64,000 bases of DNA from Candidatus Levyibacteriota bacterium (GCA_963790825.1 CAWBPM010000002.1:295159-359158), one strand, 5' to 3'. Counted from the first letter of the stretch, positions 1,905 through 24,196 are shown. The notes: generated by a model from the sequence alone, not told the origin. Made by a program: numbers and translations.

Positions 1905-2594
1905 CTATACTCTGCTTTTAAGATCAAACAACAGATCGCGGACTAATGTAGCTTTTATATGATCCTTTTGTTGGTTATTTAGTAACTCCCCAAGTCCTTC
2001 TAAAATTGTATTGGGATTTACTGTATTTTCTATAATATCAATAAGATCGGCAAAATATTCACTTGTATTTTTCCCAGTTCTCATCCTAACGATTTTCTCG
2101 TTAATTGGAAAATCCTTGACGAACATAAAATGCGCGTCATATAAATCTCTGTTTTGTAACTTTTTCCTATCGGTTATGGCGCATAGTTTATGAGCAAACA
2201 TACATTCCGGAGACAAAGTTGGAATAGTAATACCATAAAAATTTTTATTAATATATGTGTCAGGGTAATCACGCTTACTCATTTCTATTTTTACTCTCTG
2301 TTCCCCTTTTTCATAACTTCCTAACCAAAACCAAGTAAAATGTTTATTCACCTGGTCATCAATGATCAAATACTTCTTTATAATATTTGATACTGCTTCT
2401 TCAGGTAATGTTTCTGAAATGACATTAAAATCAAGATCAACGGAAAAACGATCTAATTCATAAAACATGTAGAGACACGTACCGCCTTTAAAAGCAAGTC
2501 TCCCTTGTAATTCAGGAGTCGTATATATATCTCGTAAAATATTTTTTAATATTTGTTCGTATTTCTTCCGATCTAACATATTATTTCTGTGCAT
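1905..2594 (-). CDS. abiEii: AbiEii/AbiGii-family nucleotidyltransferase toxin (type IV TA / abortive infection)
   Basis: 229 aa. The motif AFKGGTCLYMFYELDRFSVDLDFNV is characteristic of the DUF1814/AbiEii nucleotidyltransferase fold. Overlaps the upstream partner by 14 nt. Confidence 0.7.
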   Translation of the reverse strand: MHRNNMLDRKKYEQILKNILRDIYTTPELQGRLAFKGGTCLYMFYELDRFSVDLDFNVISETLPEEAVSNIIKKYLIIDDQVNKHFTWFWLGSYEKGEQRVKIEMSKRDYPDTYINKNFYGITIPTLSPECMFAHKLCAITDRKKLQNRDLYDAHFMFVKDFPINEKIVRMRTGKNTSEYFADLIDIIENTVNPNTILEGLGELLNNQQKDHIKATLVRDLLFDLKSRV

Positions 2595-3168
2595 TAATAA
2601 CTTTAATAAGTGCGTTCACTTCATTCTCTAATCTCTTATTTCCATAAATTTTTGATATCAGCGAAAGCTTTTCCGCGTCAACACCAAGAAGATTATCAAA
2701 ATAAAAACCGGGGAAGACGTATAAACAATCACAAATAGTTCGTTCTTTATCCGCTATAATGTATCTGCCATTATCGGTTAATCCTAGCTGAGAATAGAAG
2801 ATCGTTTCCTTAGCTTTATGATAGATATAATGTTGATCATTTATTGTATATTTTTTACTCCGTAAAGATATTGCATATATCGTTTCATAATATTGAAACG
2901 TTAATCCATGCATTTGGCTTGCGGTATATAAAGAAATATATGATAATGGAACAAGTTTTTGAACAATATCCAAGGGAGTGTAGTCTTGCCCATACGCGTA
3001 TACACCCTTAGAAATATGTAGTAGCCGCTTTTCTCTCAAGTAATATTTTATACGCTCAATGAGTTTTCTTCGTTCAGAAATTTTCCACAAAATTGATAAA
3101 TCTTCTATTGTAAATACCTTTTTCCCAGAAGTTGCCAATTTCTCTATATTTGTAGTTTGATGCTCCAT
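2581..3168 (-). CDS. abiEi: AbiEi-family antitoxin / transcriptional regulator
   Basis: 195 aa. Pairs with and overlaps the AbiEii gene. Has an N-terminal wHTH-like region and a C-terminal domain typical of AbiEi_4 proteins. Confidence 0.6.
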   Translation of the reverse strand: MEHQTTNIEKLATSGKKVFTIEDLSILWKISERRKLIERIKYYLREKRLLHISKGVYAYGQDYTPLDIVQKLVPLSYISLYTASQMHGLTFQYYETIYAISLRSKKYTINDQHYIYHKAKETIFYSQLGLTDNGRYIIADKERTICDCLYVFPGFYFDNLLGVDAEKLSLISKIYGNKRLENEVNALIKVINAQK

Positions 3169-3383: not shown

Positions 3384-3992
3384 TTACAAGTTACCTGTTA
3401 AAAACGTCCTGGGATTTACCGGTATTCCATAGGCGTTGATCTGAAAATGTAAATGCGGACCTGTGGCGTTGCCTGTCTCTCCTTCATAGCCGATAATGGT
3501 ATTTGTGTCAACAGTTGTTCCAACCTTTGTTGTAACTGCCTCCATATGGCCGTACAAGCTCGTTACATGACTTCCGTTGTCAATAACGACATAATTCCCA
3601 TATCCCAGGCTATCTTCTCCCGCAAACGTCACAGTACCTTTAGCAAACGGGTGTATCGGATCTCCTTGAAGGCCTTGTGGGTTGGCAATATCAATACCGG
3701 TGTGGAGTATCTGGTATGGAGGGTCGGGTTGTCCAAATTCAAGCGTCACGATACCCGTTGCGGGCCACGCCATTGACTCAGTAAAATCTGAGGTTGTCCC
3801 ATCTAAATTATGGATCTCAACCGTGTTAGTCGTGAGGTTGAGTGTGACGAGTTTGTCAGAAACGACTTGGAATCCAAAATTTGTTAATACGACTATACCG
3901 ATAATGGGAAGGAGAAGAATAAAAATAAAAACACCGGCAACAATTTTAAATTCAAAGCGATTGGAAAAAAGAGCGAATGCAACATATGGCAT
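3384..3992 (-). CDS. M23 family metallopeptidase with N-terminal TM anchor (T4SS-associated cell-wall hydrolase candidate)
   Basis: GNYVVIDNGSHVTSLYGHM...GETGNATGPHLHFQI is the LytM/M23 signature. A TM helix lies near the N-terminus. Sits immediately downstream of VirB4. Confidence 0.75.
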   Translation of the reverse strand: MPYVAFALFSNRFEFKIVAGVFIFILLLPIIGIVVLTNFGFQVVSDKLVTLNLTTNTVEIHNLDGTTSDFTESMAWPATGIVTLEFGQPDPPYQILHTGIDIANPQGLQGDPIHPFAKGTVTFAGEDSLGYGNYVVIDNGSHVTSLYGHMEAVTTKVGTTVDTNTIIGYEGETGNATGPHLHFQINAYGIPVNPRTFLTGNL

Positions 3993-3998
3993 GGTGTT

Positions 3999-5864
3999 TT
4001 ATATGTATATCTCCTTCGGATCGGTAGTTAAAAGCGGATGTTCTTTCTCCGATGCTACGACTTTGACGGCTACGTGATTCTGATCGGCAATGATTAACGC
4101 TTCGCCCCGCTCACAGGTTAGGAGAAATTGTGATTCGTATTCACTCAAATGAAATTCCTGTGTGACCTGTTTAATTGTTGTAGTGTCCTGGCGCATGAGG
4201 ATACGAAGGGAAGACTGACTGGCAATGGCTCTCCCATAATCTTGTTTGAGGAAATCCTGTGCCTGTTGGGAAATAATGGTGACTCCCAGGTAATATTTCC
4301 GTGCTCGTCGGACTAATCCGGCAATAAATCTGGCTGATTCAACGTGTTCCAAAAGCATCCAACCTTCATCTATCACGAGCATACGTTTTTGTGGATGAGA
4401 TTTCACCTGTGACTCAACAAAATTAGCAATGACCACCATCATAATTTGCCTGAGAGATTCATGAAGATCTTTTATATTGAAAACGATAAGACGATTCTCA
4501 AGTTGTATATTTGTCTGTTCATCAAAAACTGTCGATAGTGATCCTTTGACAAACCGTTCCAATCTATTGCAAATATCTTTTTGCTTCATTGTTTTAAGAG
4601 TTTTATATAAGTCTTTGACTAATGGGAATTCCTGGTGTTTTGCATTCATTTTTTTCTTTCCATTCATTGTGAAGCCAAATTCTTTGTAGGTCAGAAGTAT
4701 TGCCTTATCCATTACCGCCCGCTCTTCGGGAGAGAGTCCTTCAACCATAAGGGAAATAATTTCGGTAAGATTCTGAATATGTTCAGATAAAACATTTTCA
4801 CCATTTTGTGTAATAGAAAAATCAAAAGGATTTATTTTCTCCTTACTGGTAGCGGATAGTTTAATATACGTTCCCCTTACAGATTTTGCCAGTTGTTTGT
4901 ATTCCCGCTCAGGATCAATAACAATCACCTTTGTCCCCTGCATGAGCTGTCTGAGGATTTCAACTTTTGTGGTGTAACTTTTACCGGATCCGGATTGAGC
5001 AAAGATAATGGCATTGGCATTATTGAGTGAAAACCTGTCGACAATAACCAGCGAGTTATTTGATTTGTTAATGCCATAGAGTATTCCTGCCTCCTGCACA
5101 AGTTCTGAAGAGACAAAAGGAAAGGTTAGTGCGCCGGAGGAGCTGTCTAGATTTCGCCTCTGAGAGAGCAGGTTTTCTCCCCTCGGGAGTACCGATTGTA
5201 ACCCTTCAATCTGCTGGTAGATTGCGGTTTTTATATAAAACAACCTGGTTGCCATAACCGTTTCTAAAATCTTGGTGATTTTATTAAGTTCCGATACAGA
5301 GTCGGCAGTAATAGTCATGTAAATGGAAAACTGAAACAGCTTTTCTTTTCCCCGTTGAATATTGTTTTTAAGCAGAATTGCCGAATCCAGGGGATCGGTA
5401 ATTTCAGAACCAACTAACCGTCCGTTTTTAATCATCGCCCGTTTTGTTGCTTCAAGCTCAGTTATTTTTCTGTTCAGTTTTGGCAGAGCAAGGAGTGGAT
5501 CAACTTTTTCAATATGATAGGAGATGTCGATGTTGTAGTTAAAGTTGATAAGCATACTAAGCCATCCCGTACCGGCAACATAGGGAAACCCGCTGATAAA
5601 CAGTGTACGGACAAACTTTTCTCCCATTGACAAGTAACTGCTATTTTCCATCAGTCCCGAGTACGAAATTAAATCAATCTGGTCCTGTTCGCCGAAATTA
5701 AACTGAAATGATTTTTTCAATAATTCTTTTTTCTTGTTTTTGTATTGCAACTTTTTTTGCAAGCGTTTCATTGTCCTTTTTAAATGAATTCGCTTTGCGT
5801 TTTGCAGCGGTTGTAATGAAATATCGGTTAGATTAAACATATGATGTTTTAAGCAGCATATCAA
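3999..5864 (-). CDS. virB4: VirB4/TrbE/CagE-family T4SS ATPase, C-terminal part of a split gene
   Basis: Walker A FAQSGSGKSYTTK and a Walker B-like MLVIDEGWMLL. The conserved N-domain stretch LFISGFPYVAGTGWLSMLINF is present. Overlaps the upstream ORF by 32 nt in another frame. Confidence 0.8.
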   Translation of the reverse strand: MICCLKHHMFNLTDISLQPLQNAKRIHLKRTMKRLQKKLQYKNKKKELLKKSFQFNFGEQDQIDLISYSGLMENSSYLSMGEKFVRTLFISGFPYVAGTGWLSMLINFNYNIDISYHIEKVDPLLALPKLNRKITELEATKRAMIKNGRLVGSEITDPLDSAILLKNNIQRGKEKLFQFSIYMTITADSVSELNKITKILETVMATRLFYIKTAIYQQIEGLQSVLPRGENLLSQRRNLDSSSGALTFPFVSSELVQEAGILYGINKSNNSLVIVDRFSLNNANAIIFAQSGSGKSYTTKVEILRQLMQGTKVIVIDPEREYKQLAKSVRGTYIKLSATSKEKINPFDFSITQNGENVLSEHIQNLTEIISLMVEGLSPEERAVMDKAILLTYKEFGFTMNGKKKMNAKHQEFPLVKDLYKTLKTMKQKDICNRLERFVKGSLSTVFDEQTNIQLENRLIVFNIKDLHESLRQIMMVVIANFVESQVKSHPQKRMLVIDEGWMLLEHVESARFIAGLVRRARKYYLGVTIISQQAQDFLKQDYGRAIASQSSLRILMRQDTTTIKQVTQEFHLSEYESQFLLTCERGEALIIADQNHVAVKVVASEKEHPLLTTDPKEIYI

Positions 5865-6450
5865 TTGTTTGTCCTTTTAACGCCTGTGTTTTTATTTGGT
5901 CGGGATTGTAAAAAGAATAAAACAAATCAAGAAGTTCCAGGCTTGTTAGCTGTCTTGCTTTCATACCGAGTTTCTCGATACCCTTGCTGACAATATCCCG
6001 TTCTAAATATAAATGCTCCTTAATTGTTGTAAAATCATTTTTTCCCGTGTTGTTAAAGGGAACAATAACGTAAAACCGGCGGGAAAGAATCTTGTTGCCG
6101 CGGACCATTTGTTTAATAAACGTACAATAAGTATCAATTTGCTCTCTGTATATTGCTTCTTTTTCCTCTGTTCCTTTGATTTGTATTTGCTGGGTGTAGG
6201 AATCAATATCCATTTCCCTGACCCTAATAAGGATTTGCAGAGAGGAAGGCAGAGAATTTAAAAAGTTCTGGAAGCTATCAATTATAACATCCTGTTCTTC
6301 CTCGGATTTTAATTCGAAGTTAATCGAAGAAGTTTCCAGAACCAGACGGTACTGGTTATTCGGTAATATCAGTATATTATCTTTTACTTCTTTAATCCGG
6401 ATTTGCCGGCGGGAGCCGACTTTCTTATTTGATTTGTTCAATGCCAACAT
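5833..6450 (-). CDS. Probable N-terminal segment of the VirB4-like ATPase (frameshift-separated) or a separate T4SS accessory protein
   Basis: 205-aa ORF ending inside the start of the VirB4 ORF (overlap 5833-5864, different frame). The combined length of ~815 aa matches full-length VirB4. Confidence 0.4.
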   Translation of the reverse strand: MLALNKSNKKVGSRRQIRIKEVKDNILILPNNQYRLVLETSSINFELKSEEEQDVIIDSFQNFLNSLPSSLQILIRVREMDIDSYTQQIQIKGTEEKEAIYREQIDTYCTFIKQMVRGNKILSRRFYVIVPFNNTGKNDFTTIKEHLYLERDIVSKGIEKLGMKARQLTSLELLDLFYSFYNPDQIKTQALKGQTIDMLLKTSYV

Positions 6451-6940
6451 TTAGCCCTCCTTTTTTGTTTGTTTTTATTGAGAATATATACTTAGGGCTG
6501 AGAATGAGCTGCTCCAAGCGGATAATATCAGAAAATACGATTTTTTTAAGGGAGATTTTTTCAACCTTTTTGTCTTTTGCCCTTTTAAGTAAGCGGAATT
6601 GCCTTTTCTCAGTTACCGGCAGATATATGTCCCGCCCGTACGCATCATTTTTGTTATACACATAATATTTCGGCCTGAGGTTATACCTAAGTAAAATACA
6701 AATCCAGCTTAGAACAACTTTCCCTTTTATTCTGAGAGCAAGGGTAAGACTGATAATCGCGGCAATGAGCGCGGCGGCAATTTTTACAATGCTTAGATGC
6801 AGCTTTGGCGGAAGGATGATAAATTCAACTGTTGACAGGAAAACCGGAATCATAAGCAAGATAATCTGTGTTAAATTGAGGCTTCCCGCAATCCTGTCCT
6901 CAACGGTTGTAATCTGCGCCGGAATAATTCTGGTTCTCAC
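6425..6940 (-). CDS. Small membrane protein, VirB3/TcpE-like T4SS component candidate
   Basis: 171 aa with two or three hydrophobic helices (IILLMIPVFLSTVEFIIL, IAAALIAAIISLTLAL). Position between VirB6-like and VirB4 matches VirB3 synteny. Confidence 0.3.
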   Translation of the reverse strand: MRTRIIPAQITTVEDRIAGSLNLTQIILLMIPVFLSTVEFIILPPKLHLSIVKIAAALIAAIISLTLALRIKGKVVLSWICILLRYNLRPKYYVYNKNDAYGRDIYLPVTEKRQFRLLKRAKDKKVEKISLKKIVFSDIIRLEQLILSPKYIFSIKTNKKGGLNVGIEQIK

Positions 6941-8235
6941 GCGTTAACGTACCTCCTTCGCCGTACTGCGTCATCGTCATCGGTTTGTTGTTGTTGTTGT
7001 TGCGACCCGGCATTTTCCCCCTTACGGCTTGTCATAGTATTAAGCATTTGTCCGCCCATATGGATTAAAGCACCCATTCGGGAGGTATAGAACATCATTT
7101 GGAATAACCAGGTGGGAATTTTAAGAAGGGTTAGAAATAGTCCTATGGCAATGACAATTGAGAGAAGTGAGCTGTCCGGATTATCGGGGATAGCCAGAAA
7201 GGAGGAAGCAAGTTGTATGACAACCACGTGCACAAAAATAATAAAGACGGTAACAAAGTATCCCTTAACCGCTGCCTCGGCAAAATCCGAGAACTTGGGG
7301 ACTGCCCACATGAGAAAGATAAAAGGAGAGAGGACGCCGGCCAGGACAACGAGAATAAGCCTGACAATATACATAAAAAGGAGGATAATTGCCACGATCA
7401 AAAAGATGATAAAAAAGATTAAAGTAATTATTGGTGTATGCCCGGTCAAAACACTCACAGGACTTATGGCATTGACCACCCATGCGTGGCTCAAACCCCC
7501 TGTTGTGTTAATCACCTCACTAACCAGTGCGTTGCAGGTGGTAATAACGTAGTCGCAAAGAAACAGGGAGACATTCGCGCCTAAAAATGCCAAACCGATA
7601 CGGGGAAGTAGGTGTTTAAGCTCTATCTCCTCAAAGCCAAAGGTTGAAGCCGACATAAAATGCAACCCTAAAAGAGCAACAACGAGAACAAATAACGAAT
7701 CAACAATTCCCAGGCTTACTGTCCAGAAGTGAAATACAACTGAGTTGCTAAGTAAACTTGGAGTTGTGGTTAGATAACCTATAATCGCATTCACAATTGG
7801 CTGTGTTGCGCTTTGCACTATGTTTTGCATCAGTCCTGTAATTGCGCTGATAAGAACCTGTGCAATGGCGCCCGTTGGACTTTGGGCTGCAATGGGAATC
7901 AAACTGGTTGCTAAGGAGGCAGCGGGTGAGACGGGGGCAATAAGGGCATTTTGCAAAAGAGAGACAACAACATTTGCCGAAAGAACAAGAGAAAGACCTA
8001 TGAGGGCATTTCTGATAGTTTTCCTGGCCTGCTCCAACGCTTCCGGATGGCCGGTTGAGGTGATGTATTGGTATCCTCCTTTAATTAAGAAGAGAATCGC
8101 TGATGCCGATGCTAAAAGAGTAAGAATCTGAAGGGTGTCACTTGTGTAGTTGGTAATGTCCGCTCCTGCCGCAAATACAGGCGGAACGACAAAAAGAAAG
8201 AGAGTAGCTCCATAAAGTAAGATCTTCTGCTTCAT
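6937..8235 (-). CDS. VirB6/TrbL-like polytopic membrane protein with an N-terminal pilin-like domain and a C-terminal polyQ/polyD tract
   Basis: 432 aa with more than six TM segments. Residues 1-110 (signal peptide plus two hydrophobic segments, GGYQYITSTGHPEALEQARKTIRNALIGLSLVL) are paralogous to the 113-aa pilin-like ORF upstream. C-terminus reads SQQQQQQTDDDD, encoded by a (ttg)6 repeat at 6985-7002. Confidence 0.45.
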   Translation of the reverse strand: MKQKILLYGATLFLFVVPPVFAAGADITNYTSDTLQILTLLASASAILFLIKGGYQYITSTGHPEALEQARKTIRNALIGLSLVLSANVVVSLLQNALIAPVSPAASLATSLIPIAAQSPTGAIAQVLISAITGLMQNIVQSATQPIVNAIIGYLTTTPSLLSNSVVFHFWTVSLGIVDSLFVLVVALLGLHFMSASTFGFEEIELKHLLPRIGLAFLGANVSLFLCDYVITTCNALVSEVINTTGGLSHAWVVNAISPVSVLTGHTPIITLIFFIIFLIVAIILLFMYIVRLILVVLAGVLSPFIFLMWAVPKFSDFAEAAVKGYFVTVFIIFVHVVVIQLASSFLAIPDNPDSSLLSIVIAIGLFLTLLKIPTWLFQMMFYTSRMGALIHMGGQMLNTMTSRKGENAGSQQQQQQTDDDDAVRRRRYVNA

Positions 8236-8247
8236 AACTTGTAATTC

Positions 8248-8589
8248 CTATTGACTTGCCTGCGCCGTACCGAATGCTGTCGTCGCAAGATCGGTTATAA
8301 TCGTTGATAATACAAACGCTCCCAAAACTATTGCCAGTCCGATTGCCGAGTAAAATATAGTTTTTTTGGACCGGTCTAACGATTCCGGATTACCGGATGA
8401 AGTGATATACCCCACTCCTCCCCAGACAAAAAAACCGGCTGCTACTAAACCTGCCAGTGTGACAAGAACCGAGATGATGCTTTGGATAAAGGTTTGAATC
8501 TTCGTAACGTCTGCTGAGGCGGCAAACGCCGGCGTCGCAGTTATAAGAGACGTAAGTACTAACGATGACAGAAAGATTAGTTTTCTCAT
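8248..8589 (-). CDS. VirB2/TrbC-like pilin candidate
   Basis: 113 aa with a signal peptide ending AFA-AS and two hydrophobic segments, the typical topology of conjugative pilins. Sits adjacent to the VirB6-like gene. Confidence 0.45.
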   Translation of the reverse strand: MRKLIFLSSLVLTSLITATPAFAASADVTKIQTFIQSIISVLVTLAGLVAAGFFVWGGVGYITSSGNPESLDRSKKTIFYSAIGLAIVLGAFVLSTIITDLATTAFGTAQASQ

Positions 8590-8860
8590 GTTCCTCCTTT
8601 CTTCTTAGGATTTTTCTTACAAAAAAGCTGCTCATGACGAGCAGCAGTAATTGAAAAGATTATACAGAAAAATATACGAAATGCAAGGGGATTTTTCATT
8701 ATTCGTTATAACCGGTCGTTTTTTTCTGATAAGATCAATAATCTAAAACGGAATATCCGCAGTCATATTTTCTTTTGTTGCAGAGTTTACTATAAAATGC
8801 TCTTACATTTATTTATAAAGGGTACTACTTTTTAAAAAGAGAGTTGAAATATTCTTAAAA

Positions 8861-11266
8861 GTGAACTACTCTAATAGGGGGTTAAGAATTTTACTGAGAT
8901 TTACAGTAGGAAATAAAATGAAAAGATATTTGCTTCAAAAATTGGCTCTTTTAGTGATCGGGTTTTTTATGTTCCCCTCTGCTTCTTTTGCTTATACAAC
9001 CAATATGAACGCCTCAGTTGTTTTAGGGCAAACAAGCTTTAGTACGAATTCTACAGGTACAACCTCCAGTACTCTTAACGGTCCTAGAAATCTTACTATT
9101 TGTAATGGTAAGTTAATTCTTGCTGATTTAACTAATTCTCGAGTACTTATTTGGAATTCTATACCAACACAGAACGGGCAAGCAGCAGATGTCGTAGTCG
9201 GACAACCTGACTTTACAAGTAACACGATAAATAATGGTGGTATTAGCGCTGCAACATTGAATAAGCCGTTAGCTGTCGGCTGCTTTGGTAACAAACTATT
9301 CATTGCCGATACAGAAAATAGTCGTGTTTTGATTTATAACTCGATTCCTACCTCAAATGGAGCCTCAGCAGATGTCGTAGTCGGACAACCTGATTTTTCT
9401 CATAACACTGTCAATAATGGCGGAATTGGAGCGAATACATTAAATAGACCACATGGAGTAACGTCGGATGGACAAAGATTATTTATTTTAGATGCCGATA
9501 ATCGACGACTACTCATATTCAATTCAATACCAACCACAAATAATGCATCGGCAGATACTGTGATAGGGCAGACAAATTTTACAAGTAATGGCATAAGTTG
9601 TTCGGCTAGCGGGTTTGATCATGAAGCACTCGGTGTATACGTATATGGAGGTAAAATTGTCGTTGCACAAACGTTTTTAACTAGCCTGGGCGCCTCTGGT
9701 CACAGAGTTTTAATTTTTAATAGCATTCCGACGAGCAACGGCGCTTCCGCTGATGTTGTCATTGGCCAGTCTAGTTTTACTGATTGTTCATCATATGCAG
9801 GCACTGCAGCGAATACCGTAGATAGGCCTTTTGGAGTCTTCGTAGATTCTAAAGGTAGACTCTATATTGGTGATAGAGGAAATCAAAGAGTTTTAGTTTT
9901 TAATACAATTCCCTCATCAAATAAAGCTTCCGCAGATTTGGTGATTGGTCAACCTAATTTTACTAGCAATAGTGTAAATCAAGGACAAGCTTCTCCTGGC
10001 GCAAATACTTTAAATGGTGCTGCTTATATTACGGGTACAGACACACAATTATTTATTACAGACAGTACGAACAATCGTGTCCTCATTTACAACGACATAA
10101 CGAGTAACCCATCAATGTCCCTCGGCAACAACATCTCTTCCTCACCTAATGGGAATAATAAATTGCGTTTCACCGGAAGTGCCTCTGTAGATTCTCCCTA
10201 CACCGTCAAAAGTGTCCAATATCAAATCAATGGGGGTGGTTGGAATAATGCAACACTGACAAACAGCAATGCACAAACAACCTCCTTTTACTTTGACTTC
10301 TCACCAACTGACAACAACTATTCTGGAGACGGGTATACCATCCAAGTACAAACGACAAGCAACAATCAGGATGTGAAGAGCAACGGCTTTTATTTCACCC
10401 CATTCAACTTGAATAGTCCAGGAAACAATGCATATACCACCAGTACCACACCCACTTTCTCTTTCTCCATCAACCAAGGGAGATTCACAGACCTCTCCAG
10501 TAACCTCGATCACTTCCAAGTGCAAGTACAAAAGATTAATGATGTCAATGGTAACCATTTGAGTAGTAGCTGGCAAACTTACATTGACAACATCCCCGTC
10601 AGTTTCCAGAATAATAAGAACAATTCACAGAATCTGCAACAAAACAGCAGCAATACATATGAAACGACTAAATTCCTTGCTACCTACAGTAGTGACAACA
10701 GCAACATCAGTGTTTATGCCAAACCAATTGACAGTACAGGCAACACCACTGGAAATACCTCATTTGACCAGGGTGGAACAGTCCTGTCTTCTGGAACTTA
10801 CCAATGGCAGGTAGTTGCTATTGATAAATCAGGACACCAACAAACAACAGGCAGTAATACCCTTCGAGTCAATAGTCTGATTACCAATACAACCGGAGCA
10901 ACAATTCACTTTCCCCTTTCTATTCTCTATCTTTCAACTCTTGGCAACGTGAATCTCTCAACGGATTATTCCCAAGGAATCAAATCAACCTATACTATCT
11001 ATAATACTGCACCAACCTTCTACGGGATTGCCTATGCAGGAGCAACAGTCACCCTTACTCTAACAGACAGTGTATGTGTCACATCGTCCTCAAGCACAAC
11101 ACTATGCACAAAAACCTATACTACAACTGCAAATCCTGATTCGAGATTTGGGATCAATATCCCAACGGGAGATTTAAATAGAAACAAAACGTACACTGTT
11201 AACATGAATGTGACACAGAACGGGAACTATAATGAACTGCCTGAGTTTTCCCTCAAAGTACTCTAA
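8861..11266 (+). CDS. Large secreted NHL-repeat (beta-propeller) protein with C-terminal Ig/fibronectin-like Ser/Thr/Asn-rich domains
   Basis: Signal peptide, then at least seven repeats of the form NSRVLI(W/Y)NSIPTxNGxxADVVVGQPDF(T/S)xN (NHL-type blades), then beta-rich low-complexity domains. Transcribed divergently from the T4SS operon. Confidence 0.7.
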   Translation: MNYSNRGLRILLRFTVGNKMKRYLLQKLALLVIGFFMFPSASFAYTTNMNASVVLGQTSFSTNSTGTTSSTLNGPRNLTICNGKLILADLTNSRVLIWNSIPTQNGQAADVVVGQPDFTSNTINNGGISAATLNKPLAVGCFGNKLFIADTENSRVLIYNSIPTSNGASADVVVGQPDFSHNTVNNGGIGANTLNRPHGVTSDGQRLFILDADNRRLLIFNSIPTTNNASADTVIGQTNFTSNGISCSASGFDHEALGVYVYGGKIVVAQTFLTSLGASGHRVLIFNSIPTSNGASADVVIGQSSFTDCSSYAGTAANTVDRPFGVFVDSKGRLYIGDRGNQRVLVFNTIPSSNKASADLVIGQPNFTSNSVNQGQASPGANTLNGAAYITGTDTQLFITDSTNNRVLIYNDITSNPSMSLGNNISSSPNGNNKLRFTGSASVDSPYTVKSVQYQINGGGWNNATLTNSNAQTTSFYFDFSPTDNNYSGDGYTIQVQTTSNNQDVKSNGFYFTPFNLNSPGNNAYTTSTTPTFSFSINQGRFTDLSSNLDHFQVQVQKINDVNGNHLSSSWQTYIDNIPVSFQNNKNNSQNLQQNSSNTYETTKFLATYSSDNSNISVYAKPIDSTGNTTGNTSFDQGGTVLSSGTYQWQVVAIDKSGHQQTTGSNTLRVNSLITNTTGATIHFPLSILYLSTLGNVNLSTDYSQGIKSTYTIYNTAPTFYGIAYAGATVTLTLTDSVCVTSSSSTTLCTKTYTTTANPDSRFGINIPTGDLNRNKTYTVNMNVTQNGNYNELPEFSLKVL

Positions 11267-13210: not shown

Positions 13211-13612
13211 TTAATTAATTTCTTGAAATAGACAAGTTTCTCCGTTGGCAAGACCAAGTATCCCGACATGAATAAAAAATTGTTTCCAATTATTTCCTAA
13301 GGCAATTCCTAAGTTTTCTTCTCCCTTGAATTTATCACAGCGGTAAGTTTTTATTTCGCTATTATACGAAATAACAAGCTTATAATCGTGATTATATTTA
13401 TTTAAATAACTTAAAGTTTGTATATCTCCGTCTCTTTTGTAAGTTGTTAAATCTGGTTCATACACTACTGACCCCATTTCTCTTTTTCCTTCCTGGTTTA
13501 TTCTGTACATTGCAACGAAAACATTGTAGGAAAATACGTTTAGTTCCGGTCTGTCTTCTATAGCCAAGGGTCTTGGTATAAAAGAATATAGGGAACCATT
13601 TTTTATATCCAT
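13211..13612 (-). CDS. Hypothetical protein, tandem paralog A (immunity-protein-like family)
   Basis: 133 aa. About 40% identical to the adjacent 13651-14073 product. Shared motifs ERPELNVF, YDPDL(T/S)TYK, DYKL(V/I)IS(Y/F)N and WK(Q/R)FF(I/L)HVG(I/L)LG(L/F)A(N/K)GET. Confidence 0.5.
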   Translation of the reverse strand: MDIKNGSLYSFIPRPLAIEDRPELNVFSYNVFVAMYRINQEGKREMGSVVYEPDLTTYKRDGDIQTLSYLNKYNHDYKLVISYNSEIKTYRCDKFKGEENLGIALGNNWKQFFIHVGILGLANGETCLFQEIN

Positions 13613-13650: not shown

Positions 13651-14073
13651 TTAGTTTGTTTGTTTAATTTCATCAAACAAATAGGTTTCTCCTTTTGCAA
13701 AACCCAGTAACCCGACATGTAGAAAAAATCGTTTCCAATCATTCTCCCCGTCAGCACAGCCTACAATTTTATCCTTATTGTATTTAGCGCAACTGTAAGT
13801 ATTCTTAACGGCATTAAAAGAAATAATAAGTTTATAGTCCTGATTGAAAATATTTTTATAACTTAAACTTTTAATATCACCGTTATCTTTATAAGTAGAT
13901 AAGTCGGGATCGTAAAAGACTGAACACACAACCATTTTTCCTTCCTCATTTAATCCGTGAGATGAAACAAATACATTAAAAGGGAAAACATTAAGCTCAG
14001 GTCTTTCTTTTATCTCTAAACGGGTTGGCAAAAAAACAAACAAAGAATCTTTATCGATACTTATCATACCCAC
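13651..14073 (-). CDS. Hypothetical protein, tandem paralog B
   Basis: See 13211-13612. AT-rich pair. Confidence 0.5.
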   Translation of the reverse strand: MGMISIDKDSLFVFLPTRLEIKERPELNVFPFNVFVSSHGLNEEGKMVVCSVFYDPDLSTYKDNGDIKSLSYKNIFNQDYKLIISFNAVKNTYSCAKYNKDKIVGCADGENDWKRFFLHVGLLGFAKGETYLFDEIKQTN

Positions 14074-14445
14074 CTCCTTTCCAACAAAAAACCTCTCCTG
14101 AAAGAGAGGTATAATACAAAAAAATTGTTTACCAAATTTTCTTGGTCAAATCCGTCCCTTTCCAAGGGCTGGGTTTGGCACCGCTTAATAATTACCGGTT
14201 GCCGGGTGGGTCACTGAGCCAGAACTCTCGCCACCGCTCTTGATTAATTGTTAAGCCTATTAAATAACTTTTTAAAGGCTTTGTCAATAATTCAATACTA
14301 AGGAGTTGTTTAGGCTCTTCTAGGCAAGAGTCAAGCATTCTTTATTCTCAGTCAGTTAGTTGAACTCGCGGAATCGGTAAATGTCCAAAACAGCGAGACT
14401 AATTTTAATGCTTTTTGTAAAGCTTTCCCTTCTCCTTGTCCCAAA

Positions 14446-14499: not shown

Positions 14500-14892
14500 T
14501 TAGTTAATTCTTCTTGAGTTATTCATAATCCAATTACATATCTCCTCTATACCTATCTTTTTCGTTATAATTTCCAGAATGAATTTTTCTAATTCATTTT
14601 GAGATACCGTCAACTCAAACCCATTTTGTGCCAAAAAAATAATCATACTCACTGTTCCTGTACGCTTATTACCATCTATAAATGCATGGTTATTAACTAG
14701 CGAATATAGTAAGGCTGAAGCTTTTTCGAAAACAGAAGGATATAAATCTAGACCTGAGAAGGTTGTTTGAGGTCTAAATACTGCAGATTCAATTAAGGCT
14801 AGATCCCTTATTCCATGTGAACCACCATATCTATCAATTTGGTCCTCATGGATTAGAATAATTTGCTCAAGTGTTAAGTAAACAATATCCAC
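14500..14892 (-). CDS. doc: Doc (death-on-curing) family toxin, Fic-fold kinase
   Basis: Canonical Doc motif HAFIDGNKRTG. 130 aa. Immediately downstream of an AbrB-type antitoxin gene. Confidence 0.85.
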   Translation of the reverse strand: MDIVYLTLEQIILIHEDQIDRYGGSHGIRDLALIESAVFRPQTTFSGLDLYPSVFEKASALLYSLVNNHAFIDGNKRTGTVSMIIFLAQNGFELTVSQNELEKFILEIITKKIGIEEICNWIMNNSRRIN

Positions 14893-14897
14893 ATTTT

Positions 14898-21490: not shown

Positions 21491-24196
21491 CTATTTTATC
21501 TGCTTCGTATCATCGGGAAGTGACCCTGTTATTTTATTTTTTGTCTCCGTAGTTTCTTTCTGTCTTGCTGCTTGCTGCTCTTTATTGACCGGTTTTTTCA
21601 GGTAGACAATTGCCCAGTTATTTCTCGAAGATGCAATGAGTTTCTCCATCTTTTTACTATCTCTTTTGACGGGCATATAGATTGTCTCACCGGAAAAAGG
21701 TTCTTCGGATTCTATGGCTGAAATTTTAATATAGAATCTGTAACGGGGAAGACTCATTATTTCGCCCTTTACTAAGTAGGGCGCAAACTGGTTAAGCATT
21801 AAATCTTCATCAATATAATTGCCGGACCGGAATGAGATAACTGTGGTAACGTTTGCCAGGATAATATTGGTAACATCCCTGTCTTTTTGCTGGGAGGTTG
21901 ACTGCTCGGCAATAATTAAAGGCATCCTGTACTTTCTGCCCTCTGTTATCATTTTTGTAAATGACTGGGTTGCAAAATTTTGGAATTCGTCAACATATAC
22001 ATAAAATGTTTTCCTCTTGCTCTCCGGTATATATGCTCTTTTTAATGCAGCTTGCTGGAGTTTGGTCATGATTGTTGTTCCCATGAGCCGTGAGGAGTCT
22101 TCACCTAATTTTTGTGAGAAATTACAAATGAGAATTTTACCGCCGTTTATAATTTCATCAAAATTAATAGTGGATTTCTCCTGTTCTAAAATTCTTTTAG
22201 CAGTAGGAGAGCGGAGAAACCTTCCAACCTTGGCTGTAATCCCCTGAGTCATTTTTACTATCTGATAATCTCCGGCTTTGCCGAATTCATATTTCCAGAA
22301 ATCTACTAAATCCTCATCCGTCAGTTTTGACACAACCTGTTTGCGAAAGGTAGGATTAGTCATGATTTTATTGATGGTAAATAATGTTGCGCCCGGTACA
22401 GTAAACGCTGTGTAAATAGTATTTCTTAAAATATATTCAATTCTGTGAGCATTAGTACTCTCATCTTTTGAAAATACTTTTCTGAAAAGCGACACTACAC
22501 CTTCTGCAACTACCTCTTTTTCCAGCTCCGCTTCGTCTTCATCGAGTCCGGGTGTCAACTCCATGACGTTTATTCCGATCGGATACTTTAAGTCTATCGG
22601 GTTAATATATATGAGATCGTCTTTCCGGCTTGTCGGAATAGAAGCCACTAAATCTTCTGCTACATCTCCATGCGGATCAATAAATGCTAAACCGCGGCCT
22701 TCTTCAATATCATGTTTTGCCATGGAAAACATTAAGGTAGTTTTACCTGAACCGGTTCGGCCTAAAATATACATATGCGTTTGCCGCTCTTCTTCGGTTA
22801 ATCCGATCGGCGTTGTTACTCCCGCATAATTATTTTCTCCAAAAACAGTATCCAGCTCCGTACCGTTTTTTAGTGTTATTGGGGCGGGTAATTCTTTTGA
22901 ATGTGCTTTTACAATGTTTTCCGTTTGCGTAACATACTTAAAAGGAAAATGATATAGGTCTGCTATCTCAGACGCGGAATATAATGAGGAACTTGCATTG
23001 TTAATTAAAGATAACATTCGTTTTCGAAACACAAATAGTTGTACCCGATCCGAGACATATGGAATTCCATATGTTTTGAAGAAGGACTGATATTTAGGAA
23101 CGTTATACATAGCAAGGGAGGAATGAAAACCTTTAACCCTCTGTGCAACTTCAGACTTTTCCTTCATAACAACTAGTAACCTGATTGATCCTTCAAACAA
23201 CTCCTGATCAATTTTTGTTTTGATTGACTGGATCACTTCCTGCTCAAAGCTACTTAGTATCCTAGCCGGCCGAAGGTGCTGCATTTGTATAACTTGCTGA
23301 TACTGGTATTGCCCGGAAATATGTATCGACTGTGTGTTTGAATGCATCAGCTCAGTTATTGCCCACTGCAGATTATTTCCGATTGCCAATATCATTTTAA
23401 GTAATACTTTTAGAAGGAATAACAATATTTTTACAACTAAAGGTGCTCGGGGTTTACTTAAATACCTTAGTATATCTTCATTGTTGAGGATCATCTGAGA
23501 AAGAATATCCGCTTCTTTGATTTTGGTTCCGGAAACTACTACTTGCAAAGAGATTAATTCTCCGGGTTTTAACTGCGTCATCATACCGGTGATATACGCA
23601 ACCGGATCATGTTCCTGCAGAGTGGATTGTTTTTGCAGAGGAAAAGCAAAATGTTTTCTTAATTGAAACCCGGCAACTTTTATATGCAATTTATTATTAG
23701 TTTTATCAACAGTGGGAATATATTCACTAGTTGTTTTCACCAGGACATGGGGAAGGTAGGAGAGAATCTCCCGTTTTATGTTCTCTTTTTCTTCCGGTGT
23801 TGTCCTGACAATGAAACGGATTCCCAGCTCTCTGCTTGAAACAATTTCGAAAGAAAGAATCGTTTTCCTGCCCAGTAATTTATCTGTAAACGAATCCCGC
23901 TTTGATAAGCCGTGTATCATTGAAAAAAATTCCTGCGTGGTATATGCAGACTTTTCGCTTATTGTCGGAGGGGTAATTTCAAGCAGAACCGATTCTTCAT
24001 TCATTAGTTTTCTGAAATTGAAATACCAGCGGGCAATTAGTATTACCAGCACACATACGACAAGAAAAAGAATAAAAGGAAAGGATGAGAAAGGAGAGTG
24101 ATGAGCAAAGTTAATAAACTCATCTTTTAAATGAGGAAGAGAGGCAGTTAACCGGCTAAGTATATATCCAGCTTCCCAATGATGCCAGTCATTCAT
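21491..24196 (-). CDS. virD4: Type IV coupling protein (VirD4/TraG/TraD family) with a long N-terminal membrane-anchored extension
   Basis: Walker A ILGRTGSGKTTLMF, Walker B FYVYVDEFQNFAT and an N-terminal TM helix. 901 aa. Confidence 0.8.
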   Translation of the reverse strand: MNDWHHWEAGYILSRLTASLPHLKDEFINFAHHSPFSSFPFILFLVVCVLVILIARWYFNFRKLMNEESVLLEITPPTISEKSAYTTQEFFSMIHGLSKRDSFTDKLLGRKTILSFEIVSSRELGIRFIVRTTPEEKENIKREILSYLPHVLVKTTSEYIPTVDKTNNKLHIKVAGFQLRKHFAFPLQKQSTLQEHDPVAYITGMMTQLKPGELISLQVVVSGTKIKEADILSQMILNNEDILRYLSKPRAPLVVKILLFLLKVLLKMILAIGNNLQWAITELMHSNTQSIHISGQYQYQQVIQMQHLRPARILSSFEQEVIQSIKTKIDQELFEGSIRLLVVMKEKSEVAQRVKGFHSSLAMYNVPKYQSFFKTYGIPYVSDRVQLFVFRKRMLSLINNASSSLYSASEIADLYHFPFKYVTQTENIVKAHSKELPAPITLKNGTELDTVFGENNYAGVTTPIGLTEEERQTHMYILGRTGSGKTTLMFSMAKHDIEEGRGLAFIDPHGDVAEDLVASIPTSRKDDLIYINPIDLKYPIGINVMELTPGLDEDEAELEKEVVAEGVVSLFRKVFSKDESTNAHRIEYILRNTIYTAFTVPGATLFTINKIMTNPTFRKQVVSKLTDEDLVDFWKYEFGKAGDYQIVKMTQGITAKVGRFLRSPTAKRILEQEKSTINFDEIINGGKILICNFSQKLGEDSSRLMGTTIMTKLQQAALKRAYIPESKRKTFYVYVDEFQNFATQSFTKMITEGRKYRMPLIIAEQSTSQQKDRDVTNIILANVTTVISFRSGNYIDEDLMLNQFAPYLVKGEIMSLPRYRFYIKISAIESEEPFSGETIYMPVKRDSKKMEKLIASSRNNWAIVYLKKPVNKEQQAARQKETTETKNKITGSLPDDTKQIK

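What the first reader, a model, noticed from the sequence alone, without database searches (positions are those of the whole stretch)
6937..8589. Duplicated pilin-like module: free VirB2-like pilin plus a paralogous pilin-like domain fused to the N-terminus of the VirB6-like protein
The 113-aa ORF at 8248-8589 and residues 1-110 of the 432-aa downstream protein share a signal peptide, two hydrophobic segments and the motif GG(V/Y)(G/Q)YITS(S/T)G(N/H)PE(S/A)L(D/E)..(K/R)KTI..(S/A).IGL(A/S).VL. A pilin-VirB6 fusion is unusual. It could reflect a missed gene boundary or a genuine tethered pilin.
Basis: seen in the sequence. Interest (0 to 1): 0.6.

Follow-up and report, generated by a model that had tools for sequence, protein, structure and literature searches.

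The report
Pilin module fused to VirB6 platform
In this ultra-small (Patescibacteria/CPR) bacterium, the membrane platform protein of a type IV secretion system carries a built-in copy of the pilus subunit encoded by the gene just upstream; the fusion is real, ancient and conserved in well over a thousand related proteins, and no paper I could search describes it.

Summary
The 113-aa ORF (8248-8589, minus strand) is a VirB2/TrbC-type pilin. Residues ~25-97 of the next ORF (432 aa, 6937-8235) are its paralogue: 38% identity, BLASTP E 4e-16, z about 20 against shuffles, profile-profile E 2e-19.

The rest of the 432-aa protein is a VirB6/TrbL-like polytopic core. Its five best PDB fold matches are all R388 TrwI/VirB6.

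The fusion is not a missed gene boundary:
- All 120 listed hits (of 1144) are 403-449 aa and carry the pilin domain.
- 76 of 80 related genomic loci keep the pair "free pilin, then fused gene", and most keep the full operon (PrgI/VirB3-like, TrsD-like, VirB4, M23 hydrolase).
- The fused form persists in relatives with only about 27% core identity.

The duplication is old. Free versus fused identity is 35% both within and between genomes, against 73% for free-free and 58% for fused-fused. The linker varies in sequence but is exactly 22 residues in 75 homologues.

More distant core homologues (Ala/Pro/Arg-rich proteins, source organism not determined) and Southlakia VirB6 lack the module.

Most likely mechanism (inferred): an uncleaved, tethered pilin hairpin that docks on or primes the VirB6 pilus-assembly platform.

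Verdict: a new variant of a known kind, of moderate interest.

The parts
8656..8686 (-). Promoter-like element of the pilin/T4SS operon: TTGCAT, 16 nt, TATAAT
   Evidence: Read from the sequence. The block is conserved in the three closest loci L001-L003. The consensus scan listed only an overlapping weaker site at 8699-8671. Function is inferred.
8614..8652 (-). Conserved terminator-like leader hairpin (GCTGCTC-loop-GAGCAGC plus U6) between the promoter and the pilin SD. Associated element, not part of the original finding.
   Evidence: It is the only significant hit of model R1 in the 64-kb window (26.7 bits). There is one copy per locus, just upstream of the pilin gene, in 58 related loci.
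8248..8589 (-). Free VirB2/TrbC-like pilin gene (113 aa): signal peptide (predicted cleavage AFA|AS after residue 23) and two long hydrophobic helices joined by the loop GGVGYITSSGNPESLDRSKK
   Evidence: PF18895 at 43.4 bits and PF04956 at 39.2 bits, both above cut-off. NCBIfam NF045849, a pilin-like conjugal transfer protein, at 39.1 bits against a cut-off of 40. AF2 pLDDT 82.6 with helices 28-63 and 68-107. 2112 homologues, the listed ones 108-130 aa, some named TrbC/VirB2 family by NCBI.
8170..8235 (-). Signal peptide of the fused protein (residues 1-22, predicted cleavage VFA|AG)
   Evidence: Sequence. The xFA/xLA motif is conserved in alignment A1. Cleavage was not tested.
7945..8163 (-). 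Pilin-like module of the fused protein (residues 25-97), a helix-loop-helix paralogous to the free pilin
   Evidence: BLASTP E 4e-16. PF18895 at 38.8 bits, profile positions 5-71 of 71. hhalign E 2.3e-19. AF2 helices 25-59 and 64-98 at pLDDT 72-80. 65% mean identity among 75 homologues.
7879..7944 (-). Linker (residues 98-119): uncharged and S/T/A/P-rich, variable in sequence but fixed in length
   Evidence: 30% mean identity, yet exactly 22 residues in all 75 homologues. Spacing is 20-31 residues (median 25) in 38 distant cluster representatives. AF2 pLDDT is below 50. No SD-preceded in-frame start and no invariant cleavage motif.
7030..7878 (-). VirB6/TrbL-like polytopic core (residues 120-402)
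   Evidence: PF19597 TrbL_4 matches residues 123-401 against profile positions 3-268 of 276, E 7e-5, below the gathering score. Relatives carry PF19590 TrbL_3. The top five Foldseek PDB hits are TrwI/VirB6 of R388 at probability 0.94-1.0 and TM(target) 0.50-0.55. 72% mean identity.
6937..7029 (-). Poorly conserved C-terminal tail (residues 403-432; Q6, D4 and R4 runs in this genome) and the stop codon. The stop overlaps the GTG start of the next gene (GTGA).
6425..6940 (-). PrgI/VirB3-like small membrane protein (171 aa)
   Evidence: PF12666 PrgI at E 2.6e-4, below cut-off. Conserved at this position in 75 related loci.
5833..6450 (-). TrsD-like protein (205 aa), the VirB4 N-terminal domain encoded as a separate gene
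   Evidence: Matches residues 11-172 of the CD1110 VirB4 model (E 4e-13) and the TrsD model (E 2.5e-4). Conserved in 72 loci. TrsD is the most abundant CPR T4SS component in PMC12102498.
3999..5864 (-). VirB4-like ATPase (621 aa as listed; the start codon is uncertain)
   Evidence: NCBIfam NF045971 CD1110-family VirB4 at 352.5 bits against a cut-off of 325. Pfam P-loop_TraG, AAA_10 and DUF87. Conserved in 67 loci.
3384..3992 (-). M23 peptidase (202 aa), probably the cell-wall hydrolase of the system (VirB1 analogue)
   Evidence: PF01551 at 91.8 bits. Conserved in 61 loci. A distant relative has a CHAP hydrolase at this position.
21491..24196 (-). T4CP/VirD4-like ATPase (901 aa), 13 kb from the operon. 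Its membership of the same system was not shown.
   Evidence: PF12696 TraG-D_C, PF10412 TrwB_AAD_bind and DUF87.

Best explanation
What it is (shown). The locus is the core operon of a monoderm-type (MPF-FATA-like) type IV secretion system of a Patescibacteria/CPR bacterium. Its closest relatives are MAGs labelled Levybacteria and other Microgenomates-group lineages. The gene order is: free VirB2-like pilin, pilin-VirB6 fusion, PrgI/VirB3-like, TrsD-like, VirB4, M23 hydrolase.

The 432-aa protein is one conserved polypeptide with four parts:
- a signal peptide;
- a VirB2-like helix-loop-helix module that is an ancient paralogue of the free pilin;
- a 22-residue uncharged flexible linker;
- a complete VirB6/TrbL-like core.
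The module is an add-on to the core, not the core's own first helices.

How it most likely works (inferred). After Sec export and signal-peptide removal, the module inserts like a pilin: N-terminus out, basic loop in the cytoplasm, second helix leading back out. It then stays covalently tethered next to the first helices of the VirB6 core. In R388 those helices hold the VirB2 recruitment site.

VirB6 assembles as a pentamer in R388. If it does so here, the five tethered hairpins would form a built-in first layer, or a permanently occupied docking layer. That layer would nucleate and anchor polymerisation of the abundant free pilin. In this system it would stand in for functions supplied in diderm systems by VirB5 and VirB10.

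The free pilin gene has a strong SD, whereas the fused gene has a weak one and starts 12 nt after the pilin stop. This fits many pilins per platform.

Likely origin (inferred): a duplicated pilin gene fused in frame to the adjacent virB6 gene in an ancestor of this CPR clade.

My confidence is about 0.95 for the architecture, conservation and paralogy, and about 0.4-0.5 for the tethered primer/anchor mechanism.
For: - Paralogy.
- VirB6 identity of the core: the TrbL_4 match covers nearly the whole profile at residues 123-401; relatives carry TrbL_3; all of the top five PDB fold hits are TrwI/VirB6; the gene sits directly upstream of VirB3-like, TrsD-like and VirB4 genes.
- Real and conserved fusion: all 120 listed homologues (of 1144 significant hits) are 403-449 aa with PF18895; the 75-sequence alignment has no break; 76/80 genomic loci keep the pair and most keep the six-gene operon; about 45 cluster representatives down to about 27% core identity still carry the module; distant loci L081-L083 keep 'PF18895 pilin, then PF18895+TrbL_3'.
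- Ancient duplication under purifying selection: free-versus-fused identity is 35.0% within genomes and 34.8% between genomes, against 72.9% free-free and 58.3% fused-fused. The module is 65% conserved, the linker 30% and the core 72%.
- Module is an add-on: the pilin profile does not match the core's first helices (E 0.15). More distant core homologues are about 285-aa stand-alone cores or have Pro-rich, non-pilin N-termini. Southlakia VirB6-like SEML1_0013 has no PF18895 hit.
- Tether: linker length is invariant at 22 residues in 75 sequences and is 20-31 residues in distant relatives, and AF2 predicts it disordered.
- The residues shared by both paralogues concentrate in the inter-helix loop and its flanks (F..GG..Y.TS.G.P..L...K ... 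GL..V..A). This suggests both bind the same partner.
- Published framework: VirB6 alpha1/alpha2 form the VirB2 recruitment site, with an assembly site on top of the pentamer (PMC9259494). VirB10's transmembrane segment occupies that site as a regulator (PMC11294453). CPR T4SSs have VirB2-like pilins but no VirB5/7/9/10 (PMC12102498).
Against: - Nothing here shows the oligomeric state, whether the module contacts the core, or that these bacteria make a T4SS pilus at all.
- The AF2 model is of only moderate quality (pLDDT 63.5, pTM 0.52). The tool returns no inter-domain error estimates, so cis-docking of the hairpin on the core is untested.
- The S/T/A-rich linker directly follows an in-to-out hydrophobic helix. 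Cleavage by signal peptidase I or another protease therefore cannot be excluded.
- Saccharimonadia manage with a large unfused VirB6 and free pilins, so the tether is not a general requirement of CPR T4SSs.
- A tethered subunit could equally act as an inhibitor of the recruitment site rather than as a primer.
Confidence: 0.5

Rival explanations
1. Polyprotein or internal leader. The pilin-like module is cleaved off in the linker, with the module's second helix acting like an uncleaved-to-cleaved signal sequence. This would release a second, minor pilin (for example an initiator or tip subunit) and a VirB6 core with a free extracellular N-terminus. The fusion would then serve only to co-export the two parts and couple their amounts one to one.
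For: - The linker follows an in-to-out hydrophobic helix and is rich in small residues (S 17%, T 16%, A 10%), which resembles a signal-peptide c-region.
- Pilins are commonly processed.
Against: - The linker has no invariant cleavage motif (30% identity).
- Its length is strictly conserved at 22 residues in 75 sequences, which is not expected for a mere cleavage spacer.
- The preceding hydrophobic stretch is about 20 residues long. That length is typical of signal anchors, which are usually not cleaved (established knowledge).
- A semi-conserved P-x4-P-(S/T)-(D/G)-G motif joins the linker to the core without a break.
Confidence: 0.2
2. Membrane or regulatory accessory with no role in the filament. 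The extra hairpin merely enlarges the transmembrane ring of VirB6. Alternatively it acts as a cis-inhibitor or gate that occupies the VirB2 recruitment site, as VirB10's transmembrane segment does in R388, and is displaced on host contact. It never leaves the membrane and does not template polymerisation.
For: - VirB10's transmembrane segment blocks the VirB2 site on VirB6 alpha1/alpha2 in R388 (PMC11294453), and CPR systems lack VirB10.
- The fused module evolves faster than the free pilin (58% against 73% identity), as expected if it has lost the constraints of polymerisation.
Against: - The loop motif that is most conserved in the free pilin is equally conserved in the fused module. This argues that it still uses the same partner or handling machinery as a real pilin.
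- A simple membrane anchor would not need to keep a PF18895 match above threshold across relatives with about 27% core identity.
Confidence: 0.2
3. Artefact. Either the two modules are really separate genes (a missed boundary, or an assembly or sequencing frameshift), or the similarity merely reflects hydrophobic composition.
For: - One 1.8-kb contig (L086) shows the module and the core as separate ORFs.
- A few core-only proteins appear among the cluster representatives.
Against: - L086 is explained by a single 1-nt frameshift inside the linker: the core's reading frame continues upstream through a typical linker sequence.
- Of the two close core-only relatives, one (L085/P0127) starts at the contig edge and the other (P0121) is the L086 case above.
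- More than 100 independent assemblies give the single ORF.
- Shuffle z is about 20 and the composition-adjusted E is 4e-16.
Confidence: 0.02

Closest known systems
Patescibacteria (CPR) T4SS as surveyed by Quinonero-Coronel et al. 2025 (PMC12102498) and shown essential in Southlakia epibionticum (Wang et al. 2023, PMC10633639)
   Same: - The component set matches: VirB2-like pilins (PF18895/PF04956), PrgI/VirB3, TrsD, an MPF-FATA-type VirB4 and a cell-wall hydrolase.
- There is no relaxase in the operon and no VirB5/7/9/10.
- Tandem 'VirB2' genes near virB4 are reported as especially common in Microgenomatia.
   Different: - Neither paper mentions a pilin-VirB6 fusion.
- The survey reports VirB6 as 'scarce' in Microgenomatia and labels any protein that passes PF18895 as VirB2; its table has no length column.
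- The window protein would pass their filter (E 9.7e-10, 94% profile coverage). The fusion therefore probably hides the 'missing' VirB6 and inflates the two-gene 'pilin arrays'. This is my inference.
- In Southlakia the VirB6-like protein SEML1_0013 is longer than 1085 aa, has no PF18895 hit, and is followed by six free pilins.
Archaeal Ced system: CedA (VirB6-like, 6-7 TM) and the CedA1 pilin (Beltran et al. 2023, PMC9905601)
   Same: - The N-terminal region of the VirB6-like channel protein is homologous to nearly the whole pilin.
- The pilin gene and the VirB6-like gene are neighbours.
- The authors infer that one evolved from the other, and they see a weaker signal for A. tumefaciens VirB2 versus VirB6.
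   Different: - There the relationship needs profile-profile methods. Here it is plain at pairwise level (38% identity).
- Here the pilin module is demonstrably additional to a complete VirB6 core and separated from it by a disordered linker.
- This system is bacterial, has a cleavable signal peptide, and shows no sequence membership in the Ced families (the only hit is VirB4 to CedD at 31 bits against a cut-off of 600).
R388 TrwI/VirB6 platform with TrwL/VirB2 recruitment and assembly sites (Mace et al. 2022, PMC9259494; Mace and Waksman 2024, PMC11294453)
   Same: - The core has the VirB6 fold by Foldseek: all top five hits, TM about 0.5.
- It has the same neighbours, VirB3 and VirB4.
- The published model places VirB2 against the first transmembrane helices of VirB6. 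That is where the tether would hold the hairpin here.
   Different: - In R388, VirB2 and VirB6 are separate proteins and the system also has VirB5, VirB7-11 and an outer-membrane complex.
- Sequence similarity to TrwI is not detectable (hhalign E 0.36; PDB sequence search empty).
TrbL_3/TrbL_4 (PrgH-type) VirB6-like proteins of monoderm conjugation systems
   Same: The core is homologous to these proteins. Distant hits of the core-only search are TrbL_4/TrbL proteins.
   Different: Those proteins are about 285-aa stand-alone cores, or they carry Pro-rich low-complexity N-termini. None of them matched the pilin profile.
Mycoplasma ICE pilin-like conjugal transfer protein (NCBIfam NF045849, Mbov_0395 family)
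   Same: It is a small pilin-like protein in a wall-less monoderm T4SS. The free pilin scores 39.1 bits against it, with a cut-off of 40.
   Different: The score is just below the equivalog cut-off. I know of no reported fusion to VirB6 in that family, and I did not examine this here.

Membership tests
VirB2/TrbC conjugative pilin (Pfam PF04956, PF18895) | Profile match above the curated gathering score | tested here: met
   Free ORF: PF18895 at 43.4 against 26.6 and PF04956 at 39.2 against 27.9. Fused module: PF18895 at 38.8 against 26.6. PF04956 is not reported for the window protein but is present in several orthologues.
VirB2/TrbC conjugative pilin (Pfam PF04956, PF18895) | N-terminal signal peptide followed by two hydrophobic helices joined by a short polar, basic loop | tested here: met
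   Both proteins show an h-region plus xFA|A. Hydropathy peaks in the fused protein lie at residues 33-55 and 76-102, and the loop has 3 K/R. AF2 helices are 25-59/64-98 in the fused protein and 28-63/68-107 in the free one. Signal-peptide cleavage itself was not tested.
VirB2/TrbC conjugative pilin (Pfam PF04956, PF18895) | Polymerises with lipid into an extracellular helical filament | not testable with these tools
   This needs microscopy or biochemistry. A Foldseek search with the pilin model returned only generic helical hairpins.
VirB2/TrbC conjugative pilin (Pfam PF04956, PF18895) | Encoded in a T4SS gene cluster with VirB4 | tested here: met
   Same operon as VirB3-like, TrsD-like and VirB4 genes. 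The arrangement is conserved in related loci.
VirB6/TrbL inner-membrane platform | Profile match to a TrbL/VirB6 family above the curated score | tested here: inconclusive
   TrbL_4 scores 22.7 bits against a gathering score of 27, although it covers profile positions 3-268 of 276. Some orthologues and all distant fused relatives carry PF19597 or PF19590 in precomputed Pfam hits. hhalign against the single TrwI sequence is not significant.
VirB6/TrbL inner-membrane platform | VirB6 fold | tested here: met
   The top five Foldseek PDB hits are TrwI/VirB6 chains (7o3v, 8rtd, 8rt9) at probability 0.94-1.0 and TM(target) 0.50-0.55 over about 270 columns. E-values are only 0.1-0.6 and the model has pLDDT 63.5. 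Support is moderate.
VirB6/TrbL inner-membrane platform | Polytopic protein encoded next to VirB3/VirB4 | tested here: met
   At least five hydrophobic stretches lie after residue 160. The gene overlaps the start of the PrgI-like gene.
VirB6/TrbL inner-membrane platform | Pentameric assembly that binds VirB2 | not testable with these tools
   No multimer prediction or inter-domain error output is available.
MPF-FATA-type (monoderm) T4SS | VirB4 of the monoderm clade, with PrgI- and TrsD-type partners and no VirB7/9/10 outer-membrane complex | tested here: met
   VirB4 scores 352.5 bits against a cut-off of 325 for the CD1110 family. TrsD and PrgI hits are weak. No VirB7/9/10 was seen in the operon. 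I did not search the whole genome.
Archaeal Ced/Ted DNA-import system | Sequence membership of the CedA/CedA1/CedB families | tested here: not met
   The only hit is VirB4 to the NCBIfam CedD model at 31.4 bits against a cut-off of 600. The resemblance is architectural, not one of membership.

The most novel reading that the evidence does not exclude
The tethered hairpins are a built-in first layer of the pilus. Five VirB2-like modules, covalently held on the VirB6 pentamer by a linker of fixed length, would nucleate and anchor the filament of free pilin in a system that lacks VirB5 and VirB10. That would make this protein family a natural, stoichiometric 'VirB2 docked on VirB6' complex. It would also be a living intermediate for the proposed common origin of conjugative pilins and the VirB6 N-terminus.
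Probability: 0.35. Interest if true: 0.75.

Novelty: new variant of a known kind. Interest (0 to 1): 0.5.

Why it matters
1. How VirB2 is recruited to VirB6 and lifted off it is the least resolved step of conjugative pilus biogenesis. In R388 it rests on co-evolution analysis, docking and mutagenesis, and VirB2 is absent from the structures. A natural covalent VirB2-VirB6 protein with a fixed 22-residue tether gives a stoichiometrically defined object for cryo-EM or AF-multimer work, plus thousands of sequences for coupling analysis.

2. It probably explains a gap in the 2025 CPR survey. VirB6 was reported as 'scarce' and pilin 'arrays' as abundant in Microgenomatia. The fused protein passes the pilin filter but falls below the VirB6 thresholds.

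3. It gives pairwise-level sequence evidence in bacteria for the VirB2/VirB6 relationship, which so far rested on profile comparisons in archaea.

4. The CPR T4SS is essential for the epibiotic lifestyle in the one tractable species, so variants of its core platform bear on how these bacteria contact their hosts.

Tried and rejected
- Fold search with the free-pilin model returned only generic helical hairpins (ATP synthase c subunit, encapsulated ferritin and the like). It is uninformative for such a small fold.
- A sequence search of PDB with the family profile found nothing relevant.
- hhalign of the family against the single TrwI sequence was not significant (E 0.36). Its register (fused 296-350 to TrwI 173-231) would put TrwI residue 1 at about residue 123, but this is only suggestive.
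- The cluster-member look-up gave no organism names for distant fused relatives, so their taxonomy is unresolved apart from one NCBI label, 'Candidatus Saccharibacteria' (P0178).
- I considered whether the core's own first helices are pilin-like, as proposed for CedA and for A. tumefaciens VirB6. No such signal is detectable here (E 0.15).
- I considered recent gene conversion between the neighbouring paralogues. It is rejected because within-genome identity equals between-genome identity.
- I considered an internal translation start. No SD-preceded in-frame start lies in the linker.
- I examined apparent unfused close relatives. P0127 is cut by a contig end, and P0121 (locus L086) has a 1-nt frameshift in the linker.
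- PHROGs gave no phage link.
Full report
**1. Observation**

On the minus strand, a 113-aa ORF (8248-8589) lies 12 nt upstream of a 432-aa ORF (6937-8235). The two align over 86 residues at 38% identity with a composition-adjusted BLASTP E of 4e-16.

A local alignment scores 131. Across 2000 shuffles the maximum was 51. When residues were shuffled only inside each helix or loop segment, so that the hydrophobic pattern is kept, the maximum was 56. That gives z of about 20.

Both proteins match Pfam PF18895 (T4SS_pilin) above its gathering score, and the free one also matches PF04956 (TrbC/VirB2). A profile of 77 free pilins against a profile of 75 fused N-modules gives probability 99.2% and E 2.3e-19. 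The window has no third pilin-like module.

**2. What the second protein is**

Its parts, from alignment A1 of 75 homologues and an AlphaFold2 model (pLDDT 63.5, pTM 0.52), are:
- a signal peptide (residues 1-22, xFA|A);
- a helix-loop-helix (helices 25-59 and 64-98, pLDDT 72-80);
- a disordered linker (98-122, pLDDT below 50);
- a helical bundle (124-402);
- a poorly conserved tail.

Evidence that the bundle is VirB6-like:
- The bundle matches Pfam TrbL_4 over nearly the whole profile (positions 3-268 of 276 at residues 123-401). The score is below the gathering threshold (22.7 against 27 bits).
- Orthologues and distant relatives carry PF19597 or PF19590 (TrbL_3) in precomputed annotation.
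- In a Foldseek search of the PDB, the five best hits are all TrwI/VirB6 chains of the R388 T4SS (probability 0.94-1.0, target-normalised TM 0.50-0.55, about 270 aligned columns). Everything below them is unrelated helical proteins with TM below 0.3.
- The downstream genes are a PrgI/VirB3-like membrane protein, a TrsD-like protein (the VirB4 N-domain as a separate gene), a VirB4 of the monoderm CD1110 family (352.5 bits against a cut-off of 325) and an M23 peptidase.

The 432-aa protein is therefore a VirB2-like module joined to a VirB6-like core, inside a monoderm-type T4SS operon.

**3. Is the fusion real?**

- A search of 5.8 billion proteins gave 1144 significant hits. All 120 listed are 403-449 aa and carry PF18895. 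The exact protein sits on a 751-kb NCBI contig.
- A scan of one genome per species found 250 relatives. In 76 of the 80 loci kept, a free pilin gene of about 110 aa lies immediately upstream of a fused gene of about 430 aa. The other four loci are cut by contig ends.
- PrgI-like, TrsD-like, VirB4 and M23 genes follow in 75, 72, 67 and 61 loci respectively. The shortfall comes from contig ends.
- Searching 1.84 billion cluster representatives with the core alone (residues 116-432) gave 778 hits. About 45 full-length representatives, down to about 27% core identity, have an N-terminal extension of about 95-120 residues that matches my pilin profile at E 1e-7 to 1e-29.
- Two such distant relatives were fetched. 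They keep the order 'PF18895 pilin, PF18895+TrbL_3 fusion, small membrane protein, (TrsD-like), VirB4, hydrolase or coupling protein'.
- The two close core-only relatives are artefacts. One starts at a contig edge. The other has a single-base frameshift in the linker, and the core's frame reads on upstream through a normal linker sequence.
- The linker holds no SD-preceded in-frame start. The first Met after it lies inside the conserved first core helix.

The 'missed gene boundary' reading is rejected.

**4. Age and selection**

Over the 77-column core of the module, mean identities are:

| Comparison | Mean identity |
|---|---|
| Free versus fused, same genome | 35.0% |
| Free versus fused, different genomes | 34.8% |
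| Free versus free | 72.9% |
| Fused versus fused | 58.3% |

The two paralogues are therefore separate orthologous lineages. They diverged before this clade radiated, and there has been no gene conversion between the neighbours.

Within the fused protein, mean identity is 65% for the module, 72% for the core and 30% for the linker. Even so, the linker is exactly 22 residues in all 75 homologues. It is uncharged and rich in S, T, A and P. In 38 distant representatives the spacing between the end of the module and the start of the core stays within 20-31 residues, median 25.

**5. Add-on or intrinsic VirB6 feature?**

Beltran et al. [quoted passage not shown] They saw a weaker signal between A. 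tumefaciens VirB6 and VirB2.

Here the pilin profile does not match the first helices of the core (E 0.15, probability 0.4%), and the TrbL_4 profile is complete without the module.

The most distant core homologues are Ala/Pro/Arg-rich proteins that hit TrbL_4/TrbL. They are either stand-alone cores of about 285 aa or carry Pro-rich, non-pilin N-termini. Their source organisms were not determined.

In Southlakia epibionticum the VirB6-like protein SEML1_0013 is longer than 1085 aa, has no PF18895 hit, and is followed by six free pilins (Wang et al. 2023, supplementary table).

The module is therefore an addition to a complete VirB6 core, specific to part of the CPR. Locus titles name Levybacteria, Daviesbacteria, Gottesmanbacteria, Shapirobacteria, Pacebacteria and WWE3.

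**6. Mechanism**

Shown: the architecture, its conservation, the paralogy and the conserved tether length.

Established elsewhere:
- VirB6 forms a pentamer. Its first transmembrane helices carry the VirB2 recruitment site and its top carries the assembly site (PMC9259494).
- VirB10's transmembrane segment can occupy the recruitment site (PMC11294453).
- CPR T4SSs have pilins but lack VirB5, VirB7, VirB9 and VirB10 (PMC12102498).

Inferred: the module inserts like a pilin, with the K/R-rich loop inside, and remains tethered beside the core's first helices. There it forms a pre-docked or first layer that nucleates and anchors the free pilin.

Support for the inference:
- The tether length is fixed.
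- The residues shared by both paralogues cluster in the inter-helix loop and its flanks, which suggests a common partner.
- The free pilin gene has a strong SD. The fused gene has a weak AGGA and near-abutting reading frames, consistent with many pilins per platform.

I put this mechanism at about 0.4-0.5. The rivals are cleavage in the linker (polyprotein, 0.2), a non-filament accessory or cis-inhibitor (0.2) and artefact (below 0.02).

**7. Comparison with the literature**

The two CPR T4SS studies and the 2025 nomenclature review do not mention a pilin-VirB6 fusion. A full-text search for PF18895, T4SS_pilin, PF19590 and PF19597 found only the survey and one unrelated structure-clustering preprint.

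The survey labels any protein that passes PF18895 (i-E below 0.001, coverage above 50%) as VirB2. Its Table S3 has no length column. The window protein passes that filter (E 9.7e-10, 94% coverage), while its VirB6 signal is below threshold.

The paper's statements that VirB6 is 'scarce' in Microgenomatia and that VirB2 arrays are especially abundant there are probably explained, at least in part, by this fusion. I did not verify individual table entries.

The domain pair PF18895+PF19590 is already visible in precomputed annotations, so the architecture is implicit in databases, and NCBI names one orthologue simply 'pilin'. The closest published analogue is CedA/CedA1.

**8. Verdict**

This is a real, ancient and conserved pilin-VirB6 fusion in a CPR T4SS operon. 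It is a new variant of a known kind, apparently undescribed in the literature I could search. Its value is moderate: it could serve as a natural handle on VirB2-VirB6 docking and it corrects CPR T4SS inventories.

**9. Side observations**

- The operon leader carries a conserved terminator-like hairpin specific to this position.
- A SAM-I riboswitch precedes two unknown paralogous ORFs.
- Further side observations are listed separately.

Noticed in passing
window 8614-8686 (minus strand); related loci about 40-110 nt upstream of the free pilin start: A terminator-like hairpin sits between a promoter-like TTGCAT-16-TATAAT and the pilin SD. Its consensus is AGCUGC(C)-loop-(G)GCAGCU, then U6-8, then GUA. 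The 5' arm CUGCC is conserved in sequence, the two outer pairs show compensatory changes, and many loci have a second unpaired CUGCC downstream. Model R1 finds one significant copy in the 64-kb window and one per locus, always before the pilin gene, in 58 of 83 loci (the model was trained on 37 of them). There is no Rfam match. It could be an attenuator or a 5' stabiliser of the T4SS operon.
   Followed up: partly
window 14145-14249 (minus strand) with its terminator at 14079-14116; ORFs 13651-14073 and 13211-13612 (minus strand): A SAM-I riboswitch (RF00162, 49.7 bits against a gathering score of 44.4) with a terminator lies directly upstream of two tandem paralogous ORFs of 140 and 133 aa. 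Neither ORF has a Pfam match. They are an uncharacterised, SAM-regulated gene pair in a reduced genome.
   Followed up: partly
window 5833-6450 and 3999-5864 (minus strand): VirB4 is encoded in two overlapping genes: a 205-aa TrsD-like N-domain and a 621-aa ATPase. This split is conserved in related loci and is already reported as typical of CPR (PMC12102498).
   Followed up: yes
window 21491-24196 (minus strand): A 901-aa VirD4/T4CP-like ATPase (TraG-D_C, TrwB_AAD_bind) lies 13 kb from the operon. No relaxase was seen among the ORFs I scanned. In distant relative L083 a T4CP-like gene directly follows VirB4.
   Followed up: partly
window 8861-11266 (plus strand): A divergently transcribed 801-aa secreted protein with NHL repeats lies next to the pilin promoter region. 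It is a candidate surface or adhesion protein. I did not check whether it is conserved next to the T4SS in relatives.
   Followed up: no
window 1905-3168, 14500-15146 and 17480-18236: Several toxin-antitoxin-type pairs flank the T4SS operon: AbiEii with an upstream partner ORF, Fic/Doc with a MazE-like antitoxin, and a possible further pair at 17480-18236 that I did not scan. This suggests a variable or accessory region.
   Followed up: partly
loci L001/L002, L010/L012, L019/L042, L022/L068, L031/L045, L049/L052: Several single MAGs, and in one case a single contig, carry two diverged copies of the whole 'pilin plus fused gene' locus (for example 78% and 66% identity to the window protein in one assembly). 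T4SS duplication within a genome is therefore common in this clade.
   Followed up: no
locus L086 396-1617: On one 1.8-kb contig the fused gene is split by a 1-nt frameshift in the linker, and the module lacks a signal peptide. This is either a pseudogene or an assembly error. It is the only split copy seen.
   Followed up: yes
Genome contigs record titles: Many loci with 55-62% identity to this CPR protein come from MAGs titled 'uncultured Gammaproteobacteria', 'Pseudomonadales', 'Methylococcaceae', 'Limisphaerales' or 'Omnitrophota'. These titles are probably mislabelled records or contaminated bins, so title-based taxonomy is unreliable here.
   Followed up: no
window 6937-7029 (minus strand): The C-terminal tail of the fused protein in this genome contains Q6, D4 and R4 runs that are absent from homologues. 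The stop codon overlaps the GTG start of the PrgI-like gene (GTGA), which suggests translational coupling.
   Followed up: no
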